From: a phage
Direction: 5' to 3' (one strand)
Assembly (NCBI GenBank): GCA_021534775.1
Contig: GCA_021534775.1_4809.1
Length of the DNA: 30,283 bases
Shown here: positions 1 through 27,498 of the stretch, in pieces
Layout: each line of letters begins with the position of its first letter
Position numbering within the stretch: position 1 is the first letter of the stretch
The notes under the pieces: generated by a model
What the model was told of the DNA's origin: nothing
The model's database searches: none
Seen by the model: only the letters and a program-made list of their open reading frames with translations
Translations under genes and position numbers: made by a program

Positions 1-1628
1 TTCGTCCACAAGGTTCAACGCCGCTGGCTGGCGACCCAGTAAACGATTATGATGCCACAACAAAGCGTTGGGTGGAAAACTTAGTCAACACTGGCACTGT
101 CGGCCCAAGCATGAACGGTGTTATGAACTATGGCGTAGGTGATTTTCACCTTCGAAATGGTCGCTCATACATCCAGCCGTATGAAGTCGTTGCAGATGGT
201 CAACTATTAAACCGTGCCGATTGGCCTGAACTTTGGGCATATGCACAAATGCTTTCTCCCATCGCAGATGCCGATTGGCTTGCTGATAAGTTCAAACGTG
301 CGAAGTATTCTTTGGGCAACGGCACAACCACTTTCCGTGTACCAGACCTGAACGGTGTGCAAACAGGTTCTGTACGGGCGCTGTACGGGCGCGGCGACGG
401 CGGCAACTCGACTGCGAACGGACAAATATTTGAATCCGCTGCACCAAACATAACAGGTTCAGCTGCAGGCGTATCGGCAGGCACTTATGCGCAAATTTTT
501 GGCACAGCCGTCCGAGGTGCTTTTTACACAAACAACGATTTGTATCCTCAAGGCGCTGGAGACACAATACCCGTTGGAAGCGGCGCAGTAGAGGGGCGTT
601 TAAATACAATCAACATTGATGCATCACGCTCAAGTCCAATCTATGGCGCGGCAACAGATGAAATCATGGGCCGTAACTTTGTAGGCGTTTGGGTGATTCG
701 TGCATCGGGTGGATTTGTTGCCGCGAATACGTCTTGGAGTGTTATAAATGGCGATGGCACAAGGCCGCCTGGCGGGACGAGAGTTGAATCAGGGAAAGTA
801 AGCGTTGAATACAAGATTGGAACTGCCATCGAAGCGCAAGGAACGGTTTACACATCAGCAACGATGGGTGGGTCATATTCCACCCAGTTATCAGTAAAAA
901 ACGTCACTGCAGGTAAAGAAAAAGACATCAGCTTGACTGATGACGGTCTATTATGGTCTGACCGATTTGCGGCACGGTACGGAACGTTGATGTCATGGGC
1001 TGAGACGGGCTCAAAGTCAGGCACCTTCTCGATGACGAGACAGGCGCTTGGTCAAAACTATGGTTTCAACAGCCTTATCAGCGGTAGTCAATCTGTTAAT
1101 ACAGGATACGCAACTACTGTTCACCATGGCATGATCCACAACAACAATGGAAGTTTTGCGCAAGCTACGTGGATTGCTTCTGGTGATGATGATGCAAAGT
1201 ATCAAACAAAGATGCAAATCCAGCCTAACGTAGAGGATGTATTCTTTTCAGTATCCGTTCCAGGTTCTGACAGCTTCTTTACTCTTCAAAAGAATGCCAT
1301 CTCTGATGAGAATTTGAAGCATGACATACAACCAGGAACGGTTGAAAAAGCATGGCGCAACCTTTCATCACTGAATTATGTAACGTTCATATACAACAAT
1401 GATGAAAAGGAAAGGATAAGAAGGGGCATTATCGCTCAACAGGCAGAGATTATTGACCCGTTGTATGTTAAGACGATTAAATTCTATCCTAGTGAAGGTG
1501 TCGAAGTTGAACAAAAACAACTTGACACGACACCTATGCTTTTGGATACGATGCACGTGGTGCAGGAGTTGATGAAAAAGGTCGAGTCACTAGAGGCAGA
1601 GATAGCCGCGCTGAAAGCAGCAAAATAA
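1..1628 (+). CDS. Tail fibre protein, 5'-partial, with C-terminal S74-like intramolecular chaperone domain
   Basis: Reading frame is open from nt 3 to the stop at 1626-1628; the ORF-track start at 72 is a GTG, so the true start is upstream of the window. Gly/Ser/Thr/Asn-rich fibre-like segments (GRGDGGNSTANG, GSAAGVSAGTYAQIFG). C-terminal ISDENLKHDIQP...YVTFIYNNDEKERIRRGIIAQQAEIIDP resembles the SDxRLKxNI autocleavage signature of endosialidase/L-shaped tail fibre chaperone domains. Confidence 0.75.
   Translation, partial: RPQGSTPLAGDPVNDYDATTKRWVENLVNTGTVGPSMNGVMNYGVGDFHLRNGRSYIQPYEVVADGQLLNRADWPELWAYAQMLSPIADADWLADKFKRAKYSLGNGTTTFRVPDLNGVQTGSVRALYGRGDGGNSTANGQIFESAAPNITGSAAGVSAGTYAQIFGTAVRGAFYTNNDLYPQGAGDTIPVGSGAVEGRLNTINIDASRSSPIYGAATDEIMGRNFVGVWVIRASGGFVAANTSWSVINGDGTRPPGGTRVESGKVSVEYKIGTAIEAQGTVYTSATMGGSYSTQLSVKNVTAGKEKDISLTDDGLLWSDRFAARYGTLMSWAETGSKSGTFSMTRQALGQNYGFNSLISGSQSVNTGYATTVHHGMIHNNNGSFAQATWIASGDDDAKYQTKMQIQPNVEDVFFSVSVPGSDSFFTLQKNAISDENLKHDIQPGTVEKAWRNLSSLNYVTFIYNNDEKERIRRGIIAQQAEIIDPLYVKTIKFYPSEGVEVEQKQLDTTPMLLDTMHVVQELMKKVESLEAEIAALKAAK
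1302..1628 (+). other. Predicted autocleaved intramolecular chaperone domain of the tail fibre (domain-level annotation)
   Basis: Ser codon of SDENLK at 1302-1304, followed by about 108 aa with a coiled-coil-like tail (VESLEAEIAALKAAK). Confidence 0.5.
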
Positions 1629-1635
1629 TTCACTC

Positions 1636-1664
1636 AAGGCGCTGAAAAGCGCCTTTACTTTATG
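1636..1664 (+). terminator. Putative intrinsic terminator after tail fibre gene
   Basis: Inverted repeat aaggcgc / gcgcctt with a 6-nt loop, followed by a T-rich tract (tactttat). Confidence 0.45.
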
Positions 1665-1709
1665 CGCTATTAAGTTATACTCATTATACGTTAACAAGTG
1701 AGGTGATTT

Positions 1710-1997
1710 ATGAAATTTGAAGATATTGATAAAGCTCAGAAAGCAAAGGCTCTTCCAAAATACTTAATTTGCGGAATCGACCCTGCAGACAAACGCCTTG
1801 TCTTTTTGAAAGCCGTTACAGGCGATGAACATGGCAATGCAGTTGATTGGAGTATCCCGCTCTTTGAGACAAAGGGAGAAGCCGAACAGGCATTGTTAGA
1901 AAGCAAGATGCCTTCGCACTACAAAGTCAGGACTCAAGATGAAATTCCAACCTTGATTTTGGACAACATTAACAGCGGAGAAGGCTCTAATGGATAA
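1710..1997 (+). CDS. Hypothetical protein (95 aa)
   Basis: ORF with strong RBS (gtgaggtga) 5 nt upstream of ATG. Confidence 0.6.
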   Translation: MKFEDIDKAQKAKALPKYLICGIDPADKRLVFLKAVTGDEHGNAVDWSIPLFETKGEAEQALLESKMPSHYKVRTQDEIPTLILDNINSGEGSNG

Positions 1998-2088
1998 AGA
2001 GGCGCGACGCTTTGCATTTTGGGGCACGGTTTGTATTGTCGCCCTGTTTGGAATCGTTTACGCAATCATCCACGCTGCTGCGGCATGA
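1990..2088 (+). CDS. Possible small hydrophobic peptide (32 aa, MDKEARRFAFWGTVCIVALFGIVYAIIHAAAA)
   Basis: Short ORF below the track threshold, start overlapping the stop of the upstream gene; one predicted TM helix. Could be spurious. Confidence 0.25.
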   Translation: MDKEARRFAFWGTVCIVALFGIVYAIIHAAAA

Positions 2089-2091
2089 ATT

Positions 2092-2487
2092 ATGATCATC
2101 GATATTGAAAAGGCTCTCAAGCGCGAATTAACGCCAGGTGCGACTCCTGGTGAGGAAGCCTACTACCGACCGAAAGCGCAGCGCACCAATGAGATTCCGG
2201 TCGTTAAGCGGACAGTGAATAAGAATGGTCAGCGGTCGCGACCGCGCTCTATCCGGTCCGGTGAAAGGCTGAAAACGATTCGCCAGTGTCTACAACGGCT
2301 CGAAATCATGGGTTGTCGCGCTTATATCGACCCTGATGGAAAGGTCATGGTGAGAATTGGCAATAGTACACAACTACAAGACGGATTACCTTGCGGCGAA
2401 TCCAGACCCATAGCAAAGACCGACCGTGTGGCTACTGGCCGCGAGATTGAGGAAAGTTGGTTGGGTGCTTTCTTATTAAAATATTGA
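2092..2487 (+). CDS. Hypothetical protein (131 aa)
   Basis: ORF in the same orientation as the late operon; no recognisable motif. Confidence 0.55.
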   Translation: MIIDIEKALKRELTPGATPGEEAYYRPKAQRTNEIPVVKRTVNKNGQRSRPRSIRSGERLKTIRQCLQRLEIMGCRAYIDPDGKVMVRIGNSTQLQDGLPCGESRPIAKTDRVATGREIEESWLGAFLLKY

Positions 2488-2494
2488 GGTTAAC

Positions 2495-2743
2495 ATGAAT
2501 CAAAATGAATCAGTAGCATTCTTACAATGGCTGGAAGGTGTGGTGGAGTATTACGCTCCAAAAGACCGCTTCACCTTTCAAGGTAAAAGCTTCAAGCGCA
2601 AAGGCCAAGCTCAGAAAGCAGCTCGTAAATACTGGAAAGAAGTTTATTCAGAATTTTTCTCTCAGATGGGTATCATCGGCTCAACGGTATCCGGCGACCC
2701 TGCGCAATTGGTATCGATTGATGAATCCAATCGTCACAATTAA
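2495..2743 (+). CDS. Hypothetical protein (82 aa)
   Basis: ORF with RBS (tgagg) upstream of ATG. Confidence 0.55.
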   Translation: MNQNESVAFLQWLEGVVEYYAPKDRFTFQGKSFKRKGQAQKAARKYWKEVYSEFFSQMGIIGSTVSGDPAQLVSIDESNRHN

Positions 2744-2818
2744 TAAATCGATTTGAATGCCGTGCTATGCGGCTTTATTATAGTTATTGTTAATCACCCA
2801 AATATTAAAGGTAATGAT

Positions 2819-3199
2819 ATGTCAAATAAAAATGATTCTATGAGCCATACTTACACTAAAGGCAGCGGCACTGCTTTTGGTTCCAGCATCAAAATTGACG
2901 CTCCACCTTGCTATTCTGATGGATTGGAAGTTGGCAACCGTGACTTGACTTGGGTTTTACGTCGCCAATCCGATTTAGAAGAGAAGTTGGAAAATATTGC
3001 GCGTTCTCTTGAAAGTCTGCGCGACCAGCTTTTTGGTTGTTCTGAAGATGATTCTAAATCTCCAGAGTATTGTGTTAATCACGGTTTGATTGATAATATG
3101 CTCGCCATAACCGCTCGATCAATTGGTAAAACTGTGTCCATTGAGTCGTTGATCAGCCAGATTGCGGACGGCTTTGGTGATGCCCATAAGAGTGAATAG
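2819..3199 (+). CDS. Hypothetical protein (126 aa; ORF-track start 2753 is probably too far upstream)
   Basis: Internal in-frame ATG at 2819 preceded by aaagg; the N-terminal 22 codons of the track ORF are hydrophobic read-through of the intergenic region. Confidence 0.5.
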   Translation: MSNKNDSMSHTYTKGSGTAFGSSIKIDAPPCYSDGLEVGNRDLTWVLRRQSDLEEKLENIARSLESLRDQLFGCSEDDSKSPEYCVNHGLIDNMLAITARSIGKTVSIESLISQIADGFGDAHKSE

Positions 3200-3229
3200 T
3201 GGGTGGATGTTGCTTTAACCGTGAATCGT

Positions 3230-3256
3230 GGGTCGCTTAGGGCGGCCCTTTATTTT
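3230..3256 (+). terminator. Intrinsic terminator ending the plus-strand late operon
   Basis: Stem gggtcgc / gcggccc (one G-U pair), 5-nt loop, then tttatttt. Confidence 0.55.
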
Positions 3257-21420: not shown

Positions 21421-21579
21421 TGTTGACGTAAATTTACGAAAAATAAAACTGAAAATCAGTTTAATTAAAGTGGCATTGCCGCCATAGTTTTTAGTTGCTA
21501 CTGGCGGCGACTGAAGGCATAATTAAGTTATCCCAAACGGGGAATATAAAATAAACTAATTTATTTAAGGACTGTGAAC

Positions 21580-22419
21580 ATGGCCGAAGCAATCAAAGTA
21601 TTATCCAAAGAAGAAAAACAAGCAGCTGCAGCAGAACGTCGTCGCGTGGCTGAAGAAAAACGCCTGGCTAAAAAGAAAGAAGCCGAAGAAAAACGCCAGA
21701 AGCGTGAGCAGGAAAAACAAGCCAAGCGTGAAGAAGCTGCACTGAAACGCAAGCAGGCCGCTGATGAGAAAGCACAGAAACGTGCTGAAGAAGCAGCGAA
21801 GAAAGCCAAAGAGCGTGCAGAAAAAGCTGCTGCTAAGAAAGCAGAGCGTGAAGCCGCTAAAGCAGCGAAAGAAATCGAAAAGGCAAAGGCTAAAGAAGAA
21901 GCCAAGCGCCTGAAAGCTGAACAAGCTGCTGCTAAGAAAGCAGAGCGTGATCAAGCCCGTGCTGCTGCTAAAGCAGAGAAGGAAAAGGCTAAAGAAGAAG
22001 CGAAAGCCAAACGCAAGGCAGAGCGTGAAGCTGCTAAGATTGCGGCGAAAGAAGCTGCAGAACAGCAGAAAGAACAGCGTAAGCAAGAAGCTGAAGAACG
22101 TCGCAAGGCTATCGCAGAGCGTAAGGCTGCTAAAAAGGCAAACGGTCAGCGTCGTGCAAAAGCTACTCACTTCATCTACACTGGCAACGGCCTGAGCCAG
22201 CCGCAAGAGCATTCCACCCGTGGACGCGTTCTGGCGGCGATCAAAGAAGGCGAAGTTGGCGTGGCGCAGTCTATCGATGAGCTGGGCGAAAAAGTTAAAG
22301 ATCAACTGTTTGGTGCTTCCGTTCGCTCCTACCTGAGCAAGCTGGAAGAGATGGGCCACATCGAGTTTGTCGATGTTGAATCCAACGACGATGCCGAAGA
22401 CGGTGATCAAGCGGAATAA
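21580..22419 (+). CDS. K/E/A-rich charged protein with a globular C-terminal domain (possible winged-helix)
   Basis: About 190 aa of KAEKEAAK-type low-complexity charged helix, then RGRVLAAIKEGEVGVAQSIDELGEKVKDQLFGASVRSYLSKLEEMGHIE; start taken at the ATG with RBS aagga rather than the track GTG at 21574. Confidence 0.65.
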   Translation: MAEAIKVLSKEEKQAAAAERRRVAEEKRLAKKKEAEEKRQKREQEKQAKREEAALKRKQAADEKAQKRAEEAAKKAKERAEKAAAKKAEREAAKAAKEIEKAKAKEEAKRLKAEQAAAKKAERDQARAAAKAEKEKAKEEAKAKRKAEREAAKIAAKEAAEQQKEQRKQEAEERRKAIAERKAAKKANGQRRAKATHFIYTGNGLSQPQEHSTRGRVLAAIKEGEVGVAQSIDELGEKVKDQLFGASVRSYLSKLEEMGHIEFVDVESNDDAEDGDQAE

Positions 22420-22447: not shown

Positions 22448-22475
22448 GACCCACACTTGTTGTGGGTCTTTTTTC
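22448..22475 (+). terminator. Intrinsic terminator
   Basis: gacccacac ttgt tgtgggtc followed by tttttt. Confidence 0.75.
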
Positions 22476-22529: not shown

Positions 22530-22559
22530 TCTCATATCACCCACAAAGGACAAATGAAC

Positions 22560-23549
22560 ATGAAACAACCTGTAATGATTATCGGCGGCGGTTTGGCAGG
22601 ACTTATTACCGCGTGTCACTTCCCGAACTCTATTGTGTACGAAGCAGGGGAGCGAGCGCCACAGCACAAGGCGCTGCTACGCTTTCGCGGCGAAGAAGTA
22701 AGCCGTATTACCGGAATCCCTTTTAAGGCAGTGACAGTTGACAAGGCTGTGTATTTTCGCGGTAACTACTATCACGACCATTGCCCAATCAACCTTGCCA
22801 ATATGTATTCGATGAAGGTCACCAATCAGTTTGGCAGTCGCTCAATCATGAAGCTTAAAGCTGCAACGCGTTATATTGCGCCAGACGACTTCTATGATCA
22901 GCTTGTCGATAAACTGGGGGACCGTATATTCTTTAACACTCCGGTTGACACTCTTTGCGGCTATAGCGAGACGCCAATCATCAACACGTCGCCGCTGCCA
23001 GTTATGATGAAGCTGGCTGGGATTGATCAAAAGCTTGATTTTTCATTTGATAAAGCAAACATTCGTGTTTACCGCTTTAAGATTAAACGTAAGTGTGAGT
23101 TGTATCAGACAATTTACTTCCCTGACTACTCCGTCAGAACTTACCGCGCATCAATCACTGGTGACACACTTATCATCGAAACCATTCCTTTGGTCAGCGT
23201 AAGTGCAGCTGCAGTTGAAGCCGCTGGCGGCATCACTCGTTACCGCGACATGAAGCTTCGCGCAGAAGTCGACGAAGTGTTGACAGCCTTTGGCCTCTCA
23301 TGGAGTGACATTGCTCTTGAAGAAGTTGAAAAGGTCGACCAGAAATATGGCAAGATCGTCGACATTCCGAAGGACTTGCGACACGCCCTACTCCTGCAGC
23401 TGACTATGGATTTGAACGTGTTTAGTGTCGGTCGATTTGCTACCTGGCGCAACATTTTGCTTGATGATGTCGCTCATGACCTTGTTGAAGTTGAAAAACT
23501 CATCAAAGCAAATAACTATCAAAAATTTGCTTATATTGCTAATAAATAA
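22560..23549 (+). CDS. Rossmann-fold FAD/NAD(P)-binding oxidoreductase-like protein
   Basis: N-terminal dinucleotide-binding motif MIIGGGLAGL (GxGxxG); start at ATG 22560 fits the RBS aagga better than the track start at 22554. Confidence 0.65.
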   Translation: MKQPVMIIGGGLAGLITACHFPNSIVYEAGERAPQHKALLRFRGEEVSRITGIPFKAVTVDKAVYFRGNYYHDHCPINLANMYSMKVTNQFGSRSIMKLKAATRYIAPDDFYDQLVDKLGDRIFFNTPVDTLCGYSETPIINTSPLPVMMKLAGIDQKLDFSFDKANIRVYRFKIKRKCELYQTIYFPDYSVRTYRASITGDTLIIETIPLVSVSAAAVEAAGGITRYRDMKLRAEVDEVLTAFGLSWSDIALEEVEKVDQKYGKIVDIPKDLRHALLLQLTMDLNVFSVGRFATWRNILLDDVAHDLVEVEKLIKANNYQKFAYIANK

Positions 23550-23614: not shown

Positions 23615-24061
23615 ATGAAACGAATCACTGGAATCGCGCTTGCCGCAACCGCTATTCTCGGCACCATGTATATGGAAGCTACTGAAGCAGCTGTCCGCAC
23701 TTCCGATTCAATCGCTGTGTATGATTGCGAAGCGATGGACGGTAAAACCGCAGCAGCCACTGGCGCAACTATCACGGCTTACATCGGCGTGAACGAGCAA
23801 GAAGGTCTGAATATTCAGATTCAAGGATTCACAGGCAAAGGTGCCAACCGCACTCCTTGGATGCAACGTTTCACTTTCGTTCAGCCTCGTTCAACTGGCG
23901 GCTTTATCAACCTGATTGGTGAAAACCGTTCTGGTGCAGAAATCTTTACATCAATGAGTTCTAATAATGAACCAAAGAAAAGTTTTCAGTTGCTTTATAA
24001 CGCACAATTCGTTTATCATTGCACCTTCTCTGGTGATCAGCAACTAGTAAATTACCGTTAA
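23615..24061 (+). CDS. Putative secreted or periplasmic protein (148 aa)
   Basis: N-terminal signal-peptide-like segment MKRITGIALAATAILG; no lipobox cysteine. Confidence 0.6.
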   Translation: MKRITGIALAATAILGTMYMEATEAAVRTSDSIAVYDCEAMDGKTAAATGATITAYIGVNEQEGLNIQIQGFTGKGANRTPWMQRFTFVQPRSTGGFINLIGENRSGAEIFTSMSSNNEPKKSFQLLYNAQFVYHCTFSGDQQLVNYR

Positions 24062-24074
24062 TAGGATAATTAAA

Positions 24075-24878
24075 ATGAAAGTTGAATTAATTCGATACAC
24101 CCAAGATGCACTTGACCTTCTGCTGGAAACAAAGAACACGCGCATGACTGGTAAGCCTGTCTCTGAGATGACGGAATCAGAGAAGCAAGAGCATTGGCGC
24201 TACATGCTTGACACCATCAAGTCGCCTTTTGACTTTGTGGACTATATCTTTGACATCACCGCTGTATCAAAGAATATGACTCATCAGATGGTACGCACAC
24301 GCACAGGCGCATATCAAGAACGCACCAGCCGCGCTCAGGAATCTTCTGCATTTGATGCGATTCGCCCGAAAGCGTTTGAGTATGACGACCCTGACAGGGT
24401 TATCGGCGAGCGAATCGACGAGCAGCGTTTGAAGTTGGCTAACACCTGGGATGATGCAATGGCAACCATTGATGCCCTATACCAAGAACTTCGCGCGGCT
24501 GGCGCAGAGATTCAGGATGCACGTGCTGTGTTGCCTTCTAATATGCAAACGCATATCATGGCAAAGTTCAACTTGCGCACTCTACAACAAATGGCATCAA
24601 ACCGCTTGTGCACGCGCACTCAAGGCGAATATCAGGAAGTTTTCCGTGCGATGGTAGCGGAAGTCCTCAAGGTGCACCCGTGGGCTAATCCTTTACTACA
24701 GCCGCAATGCATCGGTATGGGTAAGTGCGCATTTCCTCGTCACGGTAAGGCCCATTGCCCATGGTATCGTGGTTGGATGGATACCACTGCACAGCAAGAA
24801 GAGTTGCGCATCCAGTTTTGGAATGCCGCGCCAATCACCAACAATCCAGTTGCTAAAGATGGAGTATCAAAGGGATGA
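24075..24878 (+). CDS. Divergent ThyX-like (flavin-dependent thymidylate synthase family) protein
   Basis: SPFDF...THQMVRTRTGAYQERTSRAQ and ARAVLPSN...NLRTLQQMASNRL match the ThyX signature regions (TPFEH / RHRx7-8S / ARAVLP / NxRxxxxFxxLR as I recall them) but with substitutions at signature positions. Confidence 0.7.
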   Translation: MKVELIRYTQDALDLLLETKNTRMTGKPVSEMTESEKQEHWRYMLDTIKSPFDFVDYIFDITAVSKNMTHQMVRTRTGAYQERTSRAQESSAFDAIRPKAFEYDDPDRVIGERIDEQRLKLANTWDDAMATIDALYQELRAAGAEIQDARAVLPSNMQTHIMAKFNLRTLQQMASNRLCTRTQGEYQEVFRAMVAEVLKVHPWANPLLQPQCIGMGKCAFPRHGKAHCPWYRGWMDTTAQQEELRIQFWNAAPITNNPVAKDGVSKG

Positions 24879-25747
24879 GCATTAAAAACAGTGAAATCTT
24901 AAACGTATTTGACCTTGACGGAACGCTGTTTGATGACCGTTGGCGCTTAGACCGCATCAAGGTGGCAGGACCGCTGTCAGACTACGATGATTATCACTGC
25001 GGCATTGGTTATGATCAGTTCTATCCTAACATTGCATCCGCAGTAGAGGCTGCATCTCTTCGCGGTGAGGCGGTTGAATATTGGACTGCAAGGCCAGAAA
25101 AATACAGACAAGTGACTTTTGAACGTCTGGACAATGTTTTCCCTTTTGATGAATTTACAATCAAGATGAGAGACTCTGGCGACAAACGTCCATCAACTAT
25201 TATGAAGTCTGCATGGCTATCGCACGCATTGCGGCACGGCGATTATCGAATCATCAATGTATTCGACGACCGACAAGACGTACTCGCGCGGATGCAAGAT
25301 GAAGCATTGTATTATAATTCCGTTGCTCAAAATAAAATCGCTTTTACATTTAATCTTTGCAAGGCAGGTGAAGTGGTGCAACAATTAGCAATTGATCCAA
25401 GCGCAACAGGGCAAGAAGAGACTAAGGCTGTGGAAGTTGAACAACCTCCGGCAACCGCTGCTGATATTCTTGATGCGATGGCCGCGACCTTCCGTGAGCG
25501 CAACGCCGTTTATGGCGATAACGCTGTGATGGTAGGTCAGGTTATGCAGGTCCTGTTCCCTAATGGTGTGACGCTGAAAACGCCGGAAGACTACCACATG
25601 TGGCATCTTTTCGAGCTTAAGATTGTCAAGCTTACACGCTTCGCAATCAGCGGCCTGAAGCACGAAGATTCTATACACGACGATGGTGTTTACAGCGCCA
25701 TGTGTGAACGTCTCGTCAACACCCACAATATTAATTTCAATAAATAG
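24875..25747 (+). CDS. HAD-superfamily phosphatase-like domain fused to a C-terminal domain of unknown function
   Basis: Motif I FDLDGTLFD, a Thr in WTARPE, a Lys (MKSAW) and VFDDRQD; C-terminal about 115 aa (RERNAVYGDNAVMVGQV...) is unassigned. ATGA overlap with the ThyX-like gene. Confidence 0.65.
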   Translation: MSIKNSEILNVFDLDGTLFDDRWRLDRIKVAGPLSDYDDYHCGIGYDQFYPNIASAVEAASLRGEAVEYWTARPEKYRQVTFERLDNVFPFDEFTIKMRDSGDKRPSTIMKSAWLSHALRHGDYRIINVFDDRQDVLARMQDEALYYNSVAQNKIAFTFNLCKAGEVVQQLAIDPSATGQEETKAVEVEQPPATAADILDAMAATFRERNAVYGDNAVMVGQVMQVLFPNGVTLKTPEDYHMWHLFELKIVKLTRFAISGLKHEDSIHDDGVYSAMCERLVNTHNINFNK

Positions 25748-25776
25748 TTTACTTGTGCGTTTCGATGAGTTATATT
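25748..25776 (+). promoter_or_regulatory. Sigma70-like promoter (TTTACT, 17 nt, TATATT) overlapped by an inverted repeat
   Basis: Inverted repeat gtttcgatgag (25759-25769) / ctcatcgaaac (25780-25790) brackets the -10. Confidence 0.45.
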
Positions 25777-25812
25777 TATCTCATCGAAACGAAGTCCAAA
25801 AAGGATAAATAA

Positions 25813-26496
25813 ATGAAAAAAGTAATTGTTGTAACTGGCTGCAACTCCGGTCTTGGTAAATCAATTTTTGACACCCTTGGCGCTTACGGTCACGAAGTCG
25901 TCGGAATCGATTTAGACAATGGATATGACATCCGCAATGCTAAACAGATGAAAGAGCTTCTCTCTCAATACGACGTAGAAGGCTTGATCAACTGTGCTGG
26001 CGTCAACTCTAACAACTGGTTTGAAGATGTCAACTACGAAGAGTTCAACCGCGTTATGCACACCAACGCCTTCTCTTTCGTCAACACAACTCAAGCCGCG
26101 CTGAAAAGTCTTATCGACAACAAAGGTTTTGTGATCAACATCGTTTCCAACGCTGCGCATATTCCTATGACGTCCAGCTTGTGTTATAATGCATCCAAGG
26201 CCGCTGCACTGATGATCAGCAAGCAGATGGCCCACGAGCTTACGCCTAAGTACGGCATCACGGTATTCTCTATTAGTCCTAACAAGTTGCGCGGCACTGG
26301 TATGTCTAAGCAGATTGAAGATGCTGTTTGTGCGACTCGCGGCTGGACTCCTGAATACGCCGCTGAATACCAGAAAAAGGCGTTGATGAATGGATTGGAG
26401 ACTGAGCCGCAAGTAATTGCTGACTTCATTCGCCATATCTTAATTACGGGCGCATGGCGCTTTATGTCTGGGACTGATATTCCATTTGGGAAATAA
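25813..26496 (+). CDS. Short-chain dehydrogenase/reductase (SDR) family oxidoreductase
   Basis: TGCNSGLGK (TGxxxGxG), NAG-like INCAGV, catalytic S...YNASK (YxxxK). Confidence 0.85.
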   Translation: MKKVIVVTGCNSGLGKSIFDTLGAYGHEVVGIDLDNGYDIRNAKQMKELLSQYDVEGLINCAGVNSNNWFEDVNYEEFNRVMHTNAFSFVNTTQAALKSLIDNKGFVINIVSNAAHIPMTSSLCYNASKAAALMISKQMAHELTPKYGITVFSISPNKLRGTGMSKQIEDAVCATRGWTPEYAAEYQKKALMNGLETEPQVIADFIRHILITGAWRFMSGTDIPFGK

Positions 26497-26499
26497 ATC

Positions 26500-26667
26500 A
26501 TGACTATCAAAGTTGTTGTAGAAGTGATTGGCGACGTGGCAGAAGTGAAGATTGATCAAGAAGGCGTTGGATTTGAAGTAATAAGAATCGAAAACGCAAA
26601 GGTTAACCACGAGCGCGTCGGTTCCATTGAGACTTATTCCATAGAAGGCAAAGATAAGGGCGAATAA
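26500..26667 (+). CDS. Small protein (55 aa, MTIKVVVEVIGDVAEVKIDQEGVGFEVIRIENAKVNHERVGSIETYSIEGKDKGE)
   Basis: Hand-translated ORF packed between the SDR and the next gene with 3-nt spacers. Confidence 0.4.
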   Translation: MTIKVVVEVIGDVAEVKIDQEGVGFEVIRIENAKVNHERVGSIETYSIEGKDKGE

Positions 26668-26669
26668 CC

Positions 26670-26885
26670 ATGAACAAAGCCTGGATAGCGGTAATCGGTT
26701 TAGTGCTTCTTGTTGTATTAGGATACACAATCAAATTTGAAGTTCCAAATCCTGTTGAGCCTGACAAAAAGATTGTCGTTGAAGTCCCAGGCGCTAAAGG
26801 TGAATTGCCCAAACCTAAATTTGAAGTTGTCACACCAGCTCCTGAAAAGAAACAGGACGAAGACAACACAGTAATTAATCAATAA
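26670..26885 (+). CDS. Small membrane-anchored protein (71 aa)
   Basis: N-terminal TM helix WIAVIGLVLLVVLGY followed by a Pro/Lys/Glu-rich tail. Confidence 0.55.
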   Translation: MNKAWIAVIGLVLLVVLGYTIKFEVPNPVEPDKKIVVEVPGAKGELPKPKFEVVTPAPEKKQDEDNTVINQ

Positions 26886-26905: not shown

Positions 26906-27457
26906 ATGCCACATTTTAAAATTGAACAAATCGCCCTGTCCATTCCAGATGCTCAACGCGCTCAGGACTTCCTGGCTAAAATCGGCCTGACAGAGTGGTT
27001 CCATGATCATGTTGTTGCTACTGGTCGCGTATTTGAAGCTGATGACTTTAAAGGTCGTCGCGACGATTGCACCAATGAAGCTGACTTGCGCTTCAACTAT
27101 CAGGCTGGCAACGGCACCGATGTCGGCGCTGGTAAGCCTCTTGAGCTTGAAATCCTTGACTACACAATGGGCTGCAACTGGATTAATGAAAACATCGAAT
27201 ATATCGATGCGCACGATAATCAGGTCAGCCACCTTGGCATGCACGTGACTGCCGCTGAACTCGCTGAATGGCGTAAGTTCTTTAGTGAAGAAGGCATTCA
27301 GGTTGCACAGGAAGTTGTAACCGACTCTCACACCAACCCAAATATTGCTGGTCAGCGTCGTTACAACTATGTGATCTTTGATACTCGTGAAATCATCGGT
27401 GTCGACCTTAAGTTCATTGTGCGGTTGAATCAAGACGGTACTCCGTACACTGTATAA
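26906..27457 (+). CDS. VOC (glyoxalase / bleomycin-resistance / dioxygenase) fold protein, tentative
   Basis: RBS aagga; overall pattern including SHLGMHV suggests a metal-binding VOC-type fold, but the assignment is weak. Confidence 0.5.
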   Translation: MPHFKIEQIALSIPDAQRAQDFLAKIGLTEWFHDHVVATGRVFEADDFKGRRDDCTNEADLRFNYQAGNGTDVGAGKPLELEILDYTMGCNWINENIEYIDAHDNQVSHLGMHVTAAELAEWRKFFSEEGIQVAQEVVTDSHTNPNIAGQRRYNYVIFDTREIIGVDLKFIVRLNQDGTPYTV

Positions 27458-27473
27458 AGAATCTTAAATCTGT

Positions 27474-27498
27474 GGCCGTCCTAATGGGCGGCCTTTTT
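27474..27498 (+). terminator. Intrinsic terminator
   Basis: ggccgtcc taat gggcggcc followed by ttttt. Confidence 0.7.

What the first reader, a model, noticed from the sequence alone, without database searches (positions are those of the whole stretch)
24875..25747. HAD phosphatase fused to an unassigned C-terminal domain and translationally coupled to the ThyX-like gene
The N-terminal half has the four HAD motifs with short spacing typical of small nucleotidase/phosphatase-type HAD enzymes. The C-terminal 115 aa (from about 25400) has no motif I can assign. The ATG overlaps the ThyX-like stop (ATGA), implying co-expression and probably a sequential reaction, such as dephosphorylation of a modified nucleotide.
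Basis: partly seen in the sequence, partly recalled or inferred. Interest (0 to 1): 0.5.

Follow-up and report, generated by a model that had tools for sequence, protein, structure and literature searches.

The report
Phage phosphatase fused to DUF6378 domain
This is a real phage gene that joins a T4-type 3'-phosphatase to a small helical domain of unknown function (DUF6378); it always sits beside an unusual thymidylate-synthase gene, is already catalogued but mislabelled as a kinase, and has never been characterised.

Summary
The window is a Wifcevirus, an E. coli myovirus related to Pseudomonas PB1. The 290-aa ORF at 24875-25747 is real, and its ATG overlaps the ThyX stop (ATGA). Residues ~8-150 are a T4 Pnkp-type HAD phosphatase. 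All catalytic residues are invariant in 75 homologues, and there is no kinase domain or Walker A motif, so the database label "polynucleotide kinase/phosphorylase" is unsupported. Residues ~195-282 are a four-helix domain of the DUF6378 superfamily and are about twice as conserved as the HAD half. This is not a frameshift artefact. In 88 related loci the two domains are fused in 26 and are separate ORFs, HAD upstream of DUF6378, in 59. A ThyX-like gene lay upstream in all 68 loci that could be evaluated. The ThyX clade is atypical (RHR becomes RTR). It travels with a Rossmann-like protein (phrog_4828) and with HAD and DUF6378, even in an unrelated 207-kb Rhizobium phage, where they lie next to dUTPase and RNR. 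In other phages, DUF6378 genes recur beside ThyA, ThyX, MazG and PurZ-DatZ clusters. The best reading is an accessory enzyme of the phage deoxynucleotide supply. The chemistry is untested, and end-healing of DNA 3'-phosphates is the main rival. It is a known family of unknown function, of moderate interest.

The parts
24875..25747 (+). HAD_PNKP-DUF6378 fusion gene (290 aa), a member of phrog_4889
   Evidence: ORF. phrog_4889 E 8e-118 across both halves. Full-length homologues 35-96% identical. AF2 mean pLDDT 91.7.
24896..25324 (+). N-terminal T4 Pnkp-type HAD phosphatase domain (residues ~8-150). Motif I is D13-x-D15-G-T, motif II T71 (with R73), motif III K111, motif IV D131-D132-R133..D135
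   Evidence: PF25109 at 35.8 bits. The family profile hits the T4 Pnkp phosphatase 5uj0 at E 1.1e-7 and Pnkp1 4xrp at 6e-7. Foldseek PDB top hits include 5uj0 and 4xru. The listed residues are invariant or nearly invariant (at least 74 of 75 homologues).
25325..25456 (+). Beta-hairpin extension followed by a low-confidence linker (residues ~151-194). Its length varies across the family and it sometimes carries Cys-rich inserts
   Evidence: pLDDT falls to 61-79 at residues 171-200. Family members range from 240 to 474 aa, with unrelated inserts at this position.
25457..25720 (+). C-terminal four-helix DUF6378-superfamily domain (residues ~195-282). Signature: ERNxxYG(D)N ... HLFELxIVKLTRF ... 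HxDSIHDxxVYxAM
   Evidence: 65-70% identical to standalone ~96-aa proteins, many carrying PF19905. 29 of 35 subfamily members hit PF19905. hhalign against canonical DUF6378 gives probability 94%, E 1.4e-7. AF2 pLDDT 94.2. Y213, K252, R255, H263, D265, S266, D269 and Y273 are invariant in 84 sequences.
24875..24878 (+). ATGA start/stop overlap with the upstream ThyX-like gene
   Evidence: Read directly from the sequence. The same overlap occurs in FEC19 and in the split-gene Pam3-like loci.
24075..24878 (+). Atypical ThyX-like flavin-dependent thymidylate synthase. It is the constant upstream partner
   Evidence: PF02511 at 103 bits, but below the NCBIfam thyX equivalog cut-off (80.1 against 87.9). 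RHR becomes RTR, and T. maritima His53 becomes Phe and Tyr91 becomes Ala. Present upstream in 68 of 68 evaluable loci.
22554..23549 (+). phrog_4828 protein (331 aa) with an N-terminal GxGxxG dinucleotide-binding motif. It is the first gene of the conserved block
   Evidence: phrog_4828 E 8e-148 with no Pfam hit. Co-occurs with ThyX, HAD and DUF6378 in most of the 88 loci (68 listed) and in Rhizobium phage RHph_Y65. The only PDB similarity is a weak match of the FAD-type Rossmann motif.
25813..26496 (+). Short-chain dehydrogenase/reductase. Conserved downstream neighbour, but absent from Pbunavirus
   Evidence: PF00106 E 1e-31. Synteny.
26906..27457 (+). Glyoxalase/VOC-like protein. Conserved downstream neighbour and the last gene before a terminator-like hairpin
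   Evidence: Weak PF13669 match, E 0.0028. Annotated as glyoxalase-like in MTx. Synteny. Terminator-like site at 27474-27493.

Best explanation
The gene encodes a two-module accessory enzyme of the phage's deoxynucleotide-supply block, centred on thymidylate. SHOWN: the N-terminal module is an intact T4 Pnkp-type HAD phosphatase. INFERRED from that family: it is Mg2+-dependent, forms an aspartyl-phosphate intermediate on D13, and is specific for 3'-phosphomonoesters. A variable flexible linker tethers it to a DUF6378 four-helix domain. INFERRED: the invariant R209/Y213, K252/R255 and D265/S266/D269/Y273 of that domain form a phosphate- or nucleotide-binding site, possibly a catalytic one. SHOWN: the gene's start codon overlaps the stop of an atypical ThyX, which suggests translational coupling, and it belongs to a block, phrog_4828 - ThyX - HAD - DUF6378 (- SDR - VOC), that is inherited as a unit just upstream of the proofreading exonuclease and PolIII-alpha genes. 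INFERRED working model: the two modules act on the same mononucleotide pool as ThyX. The phosphatase would trim 3'-phosphorylated (deoxy)nucleotides. The DUF6378 module would bind, or further convert, the dNMP substrate or product. Fusion or gene overlap would keep the two in 1:1 stoichiometry.
For: HAD identity and integrity are supported. No kinase domain or Walker A motif occurs in any of 84 family sequences. The C-terminal domain belongs to the DUF6378 superfamily. It is about twice as conserved as the HAD half, 65% against 31% median identity. The Rosetta-stone pattern is clear: fused in 26 loci, separate ORFs in 59 of 88, and ThyX upstream in 68 of 68. The link is also seen in a different genomic background. 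Rhizobium phage RHph_Y65 (Kleczkowskaviridae, 207 kb) carries phrog_4828, the same RTR-type ThyX clade and a HAD-DUF6378 fusion, followed by dUTPase, RNR beta and alpha, and an SNase-like nuclease. Canonical DUF6378 genes in unrelated phages sit beside enzymes acting at the dNMP or dNTP level: ThyA-MazG-DUF6378 in Vibrio phage VPMS1, and DUF6378-ThyA-like in Achromobacter phage maay. ThyX or ThyA is adjacent in metagenomic loci L275 and L265. ThyX-DUF6378 occurs in Faecalibacterium phage FP01 (PMC13432834). PurZ-MazZ-DatZ-146aa-DUF6378 occurs in Burkholderia Bm1 and Vibrio K294/J2. In Caulobacter phage BL198 a non-homologous metallophosphatase gene overlaps the DUF6378 gene, which repeats the phosphatase-plus-DUF6378 pairing.
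Confidence: 0.42

Rival explanations
1. It is a DNA or RNA end-healing enzyme of the replisome. The Pnkp-type HAD would remove blocking 3'-phosphates, or 2',3'-cyclic phosphates, from nicked or damaged phage DNA or RNA so that the PolIII-alpha/exonuclease pair and the phage ATP-dependent ligase can act. The DUF6378 domain would be a nucleic-acid- or replisome-binding tether. The position next to ThyX would then be mere synteny within the replication module.
For: The closest solved relatives are T4 Pnkp and Pnkp1 of the Pnkp1-Rnl-Hen1 repair complex. The gene lies 1-3 genes upstream of the DnaQ-like exonuclease and PolIII-alpha in all PB1-like, Wifcevirus and Pam3-like loci. The close relative FEC19 encodes an ATP-dependent DNA ligase about 11 kb downstream of this gene. 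Canonical DUF6378 genes sit mostly among nucleases, helicases, polymerases and ligases.
Against: There is no 5'-kinase or RNA ligase partner. In RHph_Y65 the fusion sits among ThyX, dUTPase and RNR rather than next to a polymerase. The DUF6378 links to ThyA, ThyX, MazG and PurZ clusters are not explained. The domain's invariant residues (R, K, R, D, S, D, Y) look more like a small-ligand site than a DNA-binding surface; that is inference only.
Confidence: 0.3
2. The block phrog_4828 - atypical ThyX - HAD - DUF6378 - SDR - VOC makes a non-canonical pyrimidine nucleotide. The HAD-DUF6378 protein would process that intermediate, giving a DNA modification that protects Wifcevirus DNA.
For: The ThyX clade has lost three active-site residues of characterised ThyX and scores below the NCBIfam thyX equivalog cut-off. 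[quoted passage not shown] A Foldseek hit and shared motifs link the domain loosely to 'Nucleotide modification associated domain 1'. Uncharacterised oxidoreductase-like genes flank it.
Against: No modification has been reported. The same core (without SDR and VOC) is present in Pbunaviruses, whose DNA, as far as I recall from published restriction digests (not checked here), is cleaved by ordinary restriction enzymes. The NMAD1 relationship is not supported by profile comparison (E 0.014 against 0.04-0.05 for reversed controls). There is no glycosyl-, amino-acid- or kinase-type transferase in the block.
Confidence: 0.1
3. The C-terminal domain is a non-catalytic oligomerisation or regulatory module, and only the HAD half does chemistry.
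For: It is a small four-helix bundle with no detectable relationship to any enzyme fold. T4 Pnkp itself needs oligomerisation (my knowledge). The linker is variable.
Against: It is more conserved than the enzyme it would serve (65% against 31%). About 20 invariant residues are polar or charged, which is atypical of a pure interface. It occurs widely as a standalone gene without any HAD partner.
Confidence: 0.13
4. It is a frameshift or assembly artefact that joins two genes.
For: The two halves are separate genes in many related phages.
Against: The same uninterrupted 290-291-aa ORF is present in about 29 independently sequenced Wifceviruses, and the fusion occurs in hundreds of Pbunavirus records and in Myosmarvirus, Xanthomonas, Luteibacter and Rhizobium phages.
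Confidence: 0.01

Closest known systems
T4 polynucleotide kinase-phosphatase (Pnkp), C-terminal 3'-phosphatase domain (PDB 5uj0, 1ltq), and bacterial Pnkp1 (4xrp/4xru); Pfam PF25109 HAD_PNKP
   Same: It shares the capless HAD fold and the motifs DxDG(T/C), an Arg at position +11, (T/S)xR, a conserved Lys, and DDRxxV. The family profile aligns over about 140 residues at E 1e-7.
   Different: There is no P-loop 5'-kinase domain. The domain order is phosphatase first, followed by an unrelated four-helix domain. There is no RNA ligase partner. The genomic partner is a ThyX-like gene instead.
DUF6378 (Pfam PF19905), small standalone phage proteins of unknown function
   Same: It shares the four-helix architecture and the signature R...YG / KxxR / D(S/N)xxDxxxY. 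hhalign gives 94% probability, 29 of 35 subfamily members pass or approach the Pfam threshold, and the BFVD structural neighbours are DUF6378 proteins.
   Different: The window's own domain does not reach the Pfam model (no hit at E up to 10). It belongs to a distinct, very conserved subfamily with at least 2,074 50%-identity clusters. That subfamily is always paired with a Pnkp-type HAD and a ThyX-like gene.
Nucleotide modification associated domain 1 (NMAD1 / DUF1599, PF07659)
   Same: It has a similar size and helical pattern, and look-alike motifs: KNADYG against ERNAVYG, DKxxR against KLTR, and ESxxD...NY against DSxxD...Y. One NMAD1 protein appears among the BFVD structural hits (probability 0.99, E 0.098). 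NMAD1 is reported in a dUTPase-ThyX-NMAD1 block in Asgard archaeal viruses.
   Different: No HMM or profile-profile support was found: 0 of 35 members hit PF07659, and the hhalign E of 0.014-0.04 is similar to the reversed-sequence controls. Homology is therefore unproven.
T7 gp1.7 nucleotide kinase (DUF3310, PF11753), a P-loop-less dTMP/dGMP kinase
   Same: It is a small helical phage domain in the DNA-metabolism gene class, with a KxxR ... D...Y-like pattern. It would fit the TS and PurZ contexts functionally (the function is from my knowledge of Tran and Richardson's work).
   Different: The profile-profile comparison is no better than the reversed controls, and it is not among the structural hits. 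It is an analogy only.
MazG-like all-alpha NTP pyrophosphohydrolases (including MazZ)
   Same: Both are small all-alpha domains encoded in phage nucleotide-metabolism clusters.

Membership tests
HAD superfamily, T4 Pnkp-type phosphatase (PF25109) | Motif I DxDx(T/V), with the nucleophile Asp and the general acid/base Asp two residues further on | tested here: met
   F12-D13-L-D15-G-T17. D13 and D15 are invariant in 75 of 75 homologues.
HAD superfamily, T4 Pnkp-type phosphatase (PF25109) | Motif II Ser/Thr, motif III Lys, and motif IV acidic pair (DD) | tested here: met
   T71, K111 and D131-D132 are invariant. They align with T4 S211, K258 and D277-D278 in the profile alignment.
HAD superfamily, T4 Pnkp-type phosphatase (PF25109) | Score above the curated Pfam threshold, and a fold match to solved members | tested here: met
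   35.8 bits against 27.6. Foldseek gives 5uj0 at E 4e-5 and 4xru at 6e-5. hmmsearch against PDB gives 5uj0 at E 1.1e-7.
HAD superfamily, T4 Pnkp-type phosphatase (PF25109) | 3'-phosphomonoesterase activity on nucleic-acid ends or 3'-dNMP | not testable with these tools
   Requires an enzyme assay.
Bifunctional polynucleotide kinase/phosphatase (the RefSeq and PHROG label 'polynucleotide kinase/phosphorylase') | P-loop (Walker A) 5'-kinase domain | tested here: not met
   There is no kinase family hit in Pfam, NCBIfam or PHROG outside the HAD part. The pattern [AG]xxxxGK[ST] is absent from all 84 family sequences.
DUF6378 (PF19905) | Match to the Pfam model | tested here: inconclusive
   The window domain itself has no hit at E up to 10. 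Proteins 65-70% identical to it score 21-27.5 bits against a cut-off of 27.1. 29 of 35 subfamily members match, best E 3.9e-6.
DUF6378 (PF19905) | Profile-level homology and shared signature residues with bona fide members | tested here: met
   hhalign of the subfamily against 15 canonical DUF6378 sequences (11 phage lineages plus four close relatives of one of them) gives probability 94%, E 1.4e-7 over 88 columns. The R / YG / KxxR / DxxxD...Y residues are conserved in both sets. The BFVD structural neighbours are DUF6378 proteins.
NMAD1 / DUF1599 (PF07659) | Match to the Pfam model or a profile-profile match | tested here: inconclusive
   0 of 35 members hit PF07659. hhalign E is 0.014-0.04 against 0.04-0.05 for the reversed controls, but the NMAD1 profile was narrow. 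There is one Foldseek hit at E 0.098.
MazG-like all-alpha NTP pyrophosphohydrolase | EExxE...ExxD metal-binding motifs and a MazG four-helix fold match | tested here: not met
T7 gp1.7-type nucleotide kinase (DUF3310) | Match to PF11753 or a profile-profile match | tested here: not met
   No Pfam hit. hhalign is no better than the reversed control.

The most novel reading that the evidence does not exclude
The HAD-DUF6378 protein is a functional analogue of T4 Pnkp that works on mononucleotides. The DUF6378 domain would be a new, P-loop-less nucleotide (dNMP) kinase or phosphotransferase fold. That would explain why DUF6378 genes recur next to enzymes that create dNMPs (ThyX, ThyA, PurZ) or liberate them (MazG/MazZ, dUTPase), and next to phosphatases of two unrelated folds. 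Together with the Pnkp-type 3'-phosphatase it would convert 3'-(d)NMPs and newly made dTMP into polymerisable nucleotides for a very fast-replicating phage.
Probability: 0.1. Interest if true: 0.75.

Novelty: new member of a known kind. Interest (0 to 1): 0.4.

Why it matters
[quoted passage not shown] It is widely annotated as a "polynucleotide kinase", which the sequence does not support. DUF6378 is one of the commonest unassigned small domains in phage replication modules. This locus offers a Rosetta-stone clue, pairing it with a phosphatase. It also offers a defined four-gene block (phrog_4828, atypical ThyX, HAD, DUF6378) that can be tested directly. Solving it would clarify how these phages feed their PolIII-alpha replisome. 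It could also bear on the unexplained insensitivity of Wifceviruses to restriction.

Tried and rejected
- Direct domain searches of residues 175-290 against Pfam, NCBIfam and PHROGs found nothing beyond phrog_4889.
- PDB sequence searches found nothing for the C-terminal domain, whether with the single sequence or with family profiles.
- I rejected a MazG-like NTP-PPase assignment.
- I rejected homology to T7 gp1.7/DUF3310: hhalign was no better than the reversed controls.
- NMAD1/DUF1599 homology is left open. The motifs look alike and there is one Foldseek hit, but there is no profile support.
- I looked for a hidden kinase in the long-linker family members. There are only variable inserts, some Cys-rich, and no Walker A motif.
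- I tried to assign phrog_4828 by profile search of the PDB. Only the GxGxxG motif matched, weakly.
- My third large homology search, seeded with Klebsiella phage gp66, returned only near-identical Webervirus proteins and added no diversity.
- A neighbourhood census of 60 canonical DUF6378 loci showed no strong general enrichment for thymidylate synthases. I did not run a control gene set, so I do not claim that DUF6378 is specific to the TS pathway.
- Literature searches found no functional study of this protein or of DUF6378.
Full report
**What the window is**

The region 24075-26500 is 91-94% identical to about 29 Wifcevirus genomes, including ECML-117, FEC19, WFH, WFC and BASEL Bas99-101. 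These are E. coli/Shigella myoviruses of 66-72 kb and are distantly related to Pseudomonas Pbunavirus (PB1-like) phages (PMC11990801).

**Checking the observation**

- ORF 24875..25747 (+) encodes 290 aa.
- Its ATG overlaps the TGA of the upstream ThyX-like ORF (24075..24878) in the sequence ATGA, and a GGAG lies 10 nt upstream.
- The whole protein matches phrog_4889 over both halves (E 8e-118).
- It has full-length homologues at 35-96% identity.
- AlphaFold2 with an 84-sequence alignment gives mean pLDDT 91.7. The model has an alpha/beta N-terminal domain, a lower-confidence stretch at about residues 171-200, and a four-helix C-terminal domain.

**The N-terminal domain**

- It matches PF25109 (HAD_PNKP) above the curated threshold, 35.8 against 27.6 bits.
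- A profile of the family hits the T4 Pnkp phosphatase domain (5uj0, E 1.1e-7; 1ltq) and Pnkp1 of the bacterial Pnkp1-Rnl-Hen1 complex (4xrp, E 6e-7). Motif-for-motif correspondence covers DxDG, the Arg at +11, (S/T)xR, the Lys, and DDRxxVVEM.
- Foldseek of the model against PDB gives the same relatives, plus class B acid phosphatases.
- D13, D15, R24, T71, R99, K111, D131 and D132 are invariant in all 75 homologues. R73, R133 and D135 are conserved in 74 of 75.
- This is an intact enzyme under purifying selection.
- No kinase domain is present. No kinase family is hit, and no Walker A pattern occurs in any of 84 family sequences.
- The widespread label "polynucleotide kinase/phosphorylase" or "3'-phosphatase, 5'-polynucleotide kinase" is therefore an over-annotation carried over from the Pnkp phosphatase similarity.

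**The C-terminal domain**

- On its own it hits nothing in Pfam, NCBIfam or the PDB.
- It is 65-70% identical to hundreds of standalone proteins of about 96-100 aa, many carrying PF19905 (DUF6378) at or near threshold.
- 29 of 35 members of this subfamily match PF19905.
- Against 15 canonical DUF6378 sequences (11 phage lineages plus four close relatives of one of them), the subfamily profile gives hhalign probability 94%, E 1.4e-7.
- The shared signature is R...YG, KxxR and D(S/N)xxDxxxY.
- The AF2 model of the domain (pLDDT 94.2) is a four-helix bundle.
- The subfamily is large, with 2,074 clusters at 50% identity.
- The domain is about twice as conserved as the HAD half, 65% against 31% median identity to the window protein.
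- I tested three possible relationships. None is supported by profile comparison beyond reversed-sequence controls:
  - MazG-like NTP pyrophosphatases.
  - T7 gp1.7 (DUF3310).
  - NMAD1/DUF1599.
- The NMAD1 resemblance, based on motifs and one structural hit, stays a lead.

**Fusion against split genes, and synteny**

- In Pam3-like metagenomic phages the two halves are separate genes with overlapping start and stop codons. The order is ThyX - HAD (160 aa) - DUF6378 (100 aa) - SDR - 157 aa - RNase T-like exonuclease - PolIII-alpha.
- I scanned 88 loci with HMMs built here.
  - The domains are fused in 26 and are separate ORFs in 59.
  - In the other three no HAD was seen within 1.5 kb upstream; in two of these the contig begins just upstream of the DUF6378 gene, and in one (L038) the HAD gene lies further upstream.
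  - A ThyX-like gene lies within 2.6 kb upstream in 68 of 68 evaluable loci.
  - The commonest order (53 loci, plus 30 truncated or partial variants) is phrog_4828 - ThyX - HAD - DUF6378 - SDR - VOC - exonuclease.
- Pbunaviruses lack SDR and VOC but keep ThyX - (64 aa) - fusion - exonuclease - PolIII-alpha.
- Myosmarvirus MTx has a 474-aa version with a long Cys-rich linker.
- In the window, terminator-like hairpins at 22448-22468 and 27474-27493 bracket the block.

**Independence from shared ancestry**

- The best evidence that the linkage is functional comes from Rhizobium phage RHph_Y65 (Kleczkowskaviridae, 207 kb).
- It has a phrog_4828 homologue (E 1e-91), a ThyX of the same clade and a 240-aa HAD-DUF6378 fusion.
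- These are followed by a 120-aa hypothetical protein, dUTPase, RNR beta and alpha, and an SNase-like nuclease. That is a nucleotide-metabolism neighbourhood rather than a polymerase neighbourhood.
- The ThyX proteins that accompany HAD-DUF6378 form a distinct clade:
  - The RHR motif is R(T/N)R.
  - T. maritima His53 is Phe or Trp.
  - Tyr91 is Ala or Val.
  - The window's protein falls below the NCBIfam thyX equivalog cut-off.

**What DUF6378 keeps company with elsewhere**

| Phage or locus | Gene context | Calls |
|---|---|---|
| Vibrio VPMS1 | PolA - ThyA-type TS - MazG - DUF6378 - nuclease | 80 |
| Achromobacter maay | DUF6378 - ThyA-like | 81, 113 |
| Burkholderia Bm1; Vibrio K294 and J2 (aminoadenine/PurZ phages) | PurZ - MazZ - DatZ - 146-aa protein - DUF6378 | 66, 67, 83, 84, 113 |
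| Caulobacter BL198 | Metallophosphatase gene overlapping the DUF6378 gene | 79, 88 |
| BcepNY3, Brucella Tb, AP22, Mannheimia phage | Polymerase, helicase or SSB genes | 63-65, 82 |
| Faecalibacterium phage FP01 | ThyX - DUF6378 | PMC13432834; |
| Asgard wyrdviruses | dUTPase - ThyX - NMAD1 | bioRxiv 10.1101/2021.07.29.453957; |

- A census of 60 metagenomic canonical DUF6378 loci was sobering.
- Only 3 had a TS or dUTPase gene within three genes.
- Among the 141 proteins within two genes that were scanned against Pfam, MazG matched 4. The commonest families were PD-(D/E)XK nucleases, PolA, SNF2 and AAA_24.
- DUF6378 is thus a general resident of replication and nucleotide-metabolism modules. 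It shows recurrent but not exclusive links to dNMP-level enzymes.

**Interpretation**

- These points are shown:
  - An intact Pnkp-type phosphatase.
  - A DUF6378-superfamily domain.
  - A genuine fusion with split counterparts.
  - Conserved coupling to an atypical ThyX within a four-gene core.
- I infer that the protein is an accessory enzyme of the phage's deoxynucleotide supply. The phosphatase would act on 3'-phosphorylated (deoxy)nucleotides, and DUF6378 would bind or convert nucleotides (confidence about 0.4).
- The main rival is a 3'-end-healing role at the replisome (about 0.3). It fits the enzymology of known PF25109 members and the position next to the exonuclease and PolIII-alpha genes.
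- A role in making a modified nucleotide is possible but thinly supported (about 0.1).
  - The points in its favour are the atypical ThyX, flanking oxidoreductase-like genes, and the reported insensitivity of Wifceviruses to RM systems without a known protection mechanism.

**Novelty and score**

- The protein family is already catalogued, as phrog_4889 and in UniProt entries such as that of phage EC150.
- The window's copy is up to 96% identical to catalogued proteins. I class it as a new member of a known kind whose function is unknown.
- Three things make it moderately interesting:
  - The corrected annotation.
  - The Rosetta-stone link between a phosphatase and one of the commonest unassigned phage domains.
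  - The definition of a portable phrog_4828 - ThyX - HAD - DUF6378 core.
- My interest score is 0.4.

Noticed in passing
window 24075-24878 (+): The ThyX-like protein belongs to an atypical clade. The RHR signature is RTR, T. maritima His53 is Phe and Tyr91 is Ala. It scores below the NCBIfam thyX equivalog cut-off (80.1 against 87.9). The same variant accompanies HAD-DUF6378 in Pbunavirus, Myosmarvirus, Pam3-like phages and Rhizobium phage RHph_Y65. Whether it still makes dTMP is untested.
   Followed up: partly
window 22554-23549 (+): A 331-aa protein (phrog_4828, unknown function) has an N-terminal GxGxxG dinucleotide-binding motif and no Pfam or PDB relative. It is the first gene of the conserved block and co-occurs with ThyX and HAD-DUF6378 even in RHph_Y65 (E 1e-91).
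   Followed up: partly
window 25758-25791 (+): A perfect 12-bp hairpin lies in the 65-nt spacer between the fusion gene and the SDR gene. Its energy is -22.1 kcal/mol, z = -5.5 against shuffles, and no U-tract follows. It may be an RNA processing or attenuation element. The SDR Shine-Dalgarno sequence lies just downstream in a second small hairpin.
   Followed up: partly
window 22448-22468 and 27474-27493 (+): Two strong terminator-like hairpins with T-runs bracket the block phrog_4828 ... VOC. This suggests one transcription unit separate from the exonuclease and polymerase genes.
   Followed up: no
window 23615-24061 (+): A 148-aa ORF with a signal-peptide-like N-terminus (MKRITGIALAATAILG...) sits between phrog_4828 and ThyX. 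It has no Pfam or PHROG match, which is odd for a nucleotide-metabolism operon.
   Followed up: no
window 25813-26496 and 26906-27457 (+): SDR (FabG-like) and glyoxalase/VOC-like genes follow the fusion in Wifcevirus, Myosmarvirus and Pam3-like loci (about 80 loci). They are missing from Pbunavirus. Two small ORFs (26500-26667 and 26670-26885, the latter hydrophobic) lie between them in the window.
   Followed up: partly
L095 (Burkholderia phage Bm1) 1065-4154; L181 (Vibrio K294) 680-3255; L182 (Vibrio J2) 463-3249: In aminoadenine (PurZ) phages of two different groups, a DUF6378 gene and a conserved gene of about 146 aa (no Pfam, annotated 'DNA helicase') directly follow PurZ-MazZ-DatZ. To my knowledge they have not been discussed as members of the Z-genome cluster. 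The 146-aa family also appears near DUF6378 and a ThyA-like gene in Achromobacter phage maay (L179).
   Followed up: partly
L177 (Caulobacter phage BL198) 1707-3252: A 361-aa gene annotated as a metallo-dependent phosphatase overlaps the start of a DUF6378 gene. Its only Pfam match is a very weak one to Metallophos (E 0.15). This is a second phosphatase-DUF6378 pairing with a non-homologous phosphatase fold.
   Followed up: no
P0197 (Serratia phage MTx, 474 aa), P0137 (429 aa): Long-linker members of the fusion family carry Cys-rich inserts that look like zinc ribbons (CxC...CPxHG; CxxC...CPYCG) between the HAD and DUF6378 domains.
   Followed up: no
window 21574-22419 (+): A 281-aa Lys/Ala/Glu-rich low-complexity protein is annotated 'TolA protein' in FEC19, and its positional counterpart is annotated 'structural protein' in phiKTN6. 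It lies between the Dda-like helicase gene and the block. A long antisense ORF across it is probably a compositional artefact.
   Followed up: no
L028 and L083 (IMG/VR contigs of about 70 kb): Some relatives carry a second HAD-like gene upstream of ThyX in addition to the HAD-DUF6378 fusion. In L038 the only HAD gene found lies upstream of phrog_4828, about 2.3 kb from the DUF6378 gene.
   Followed up: no
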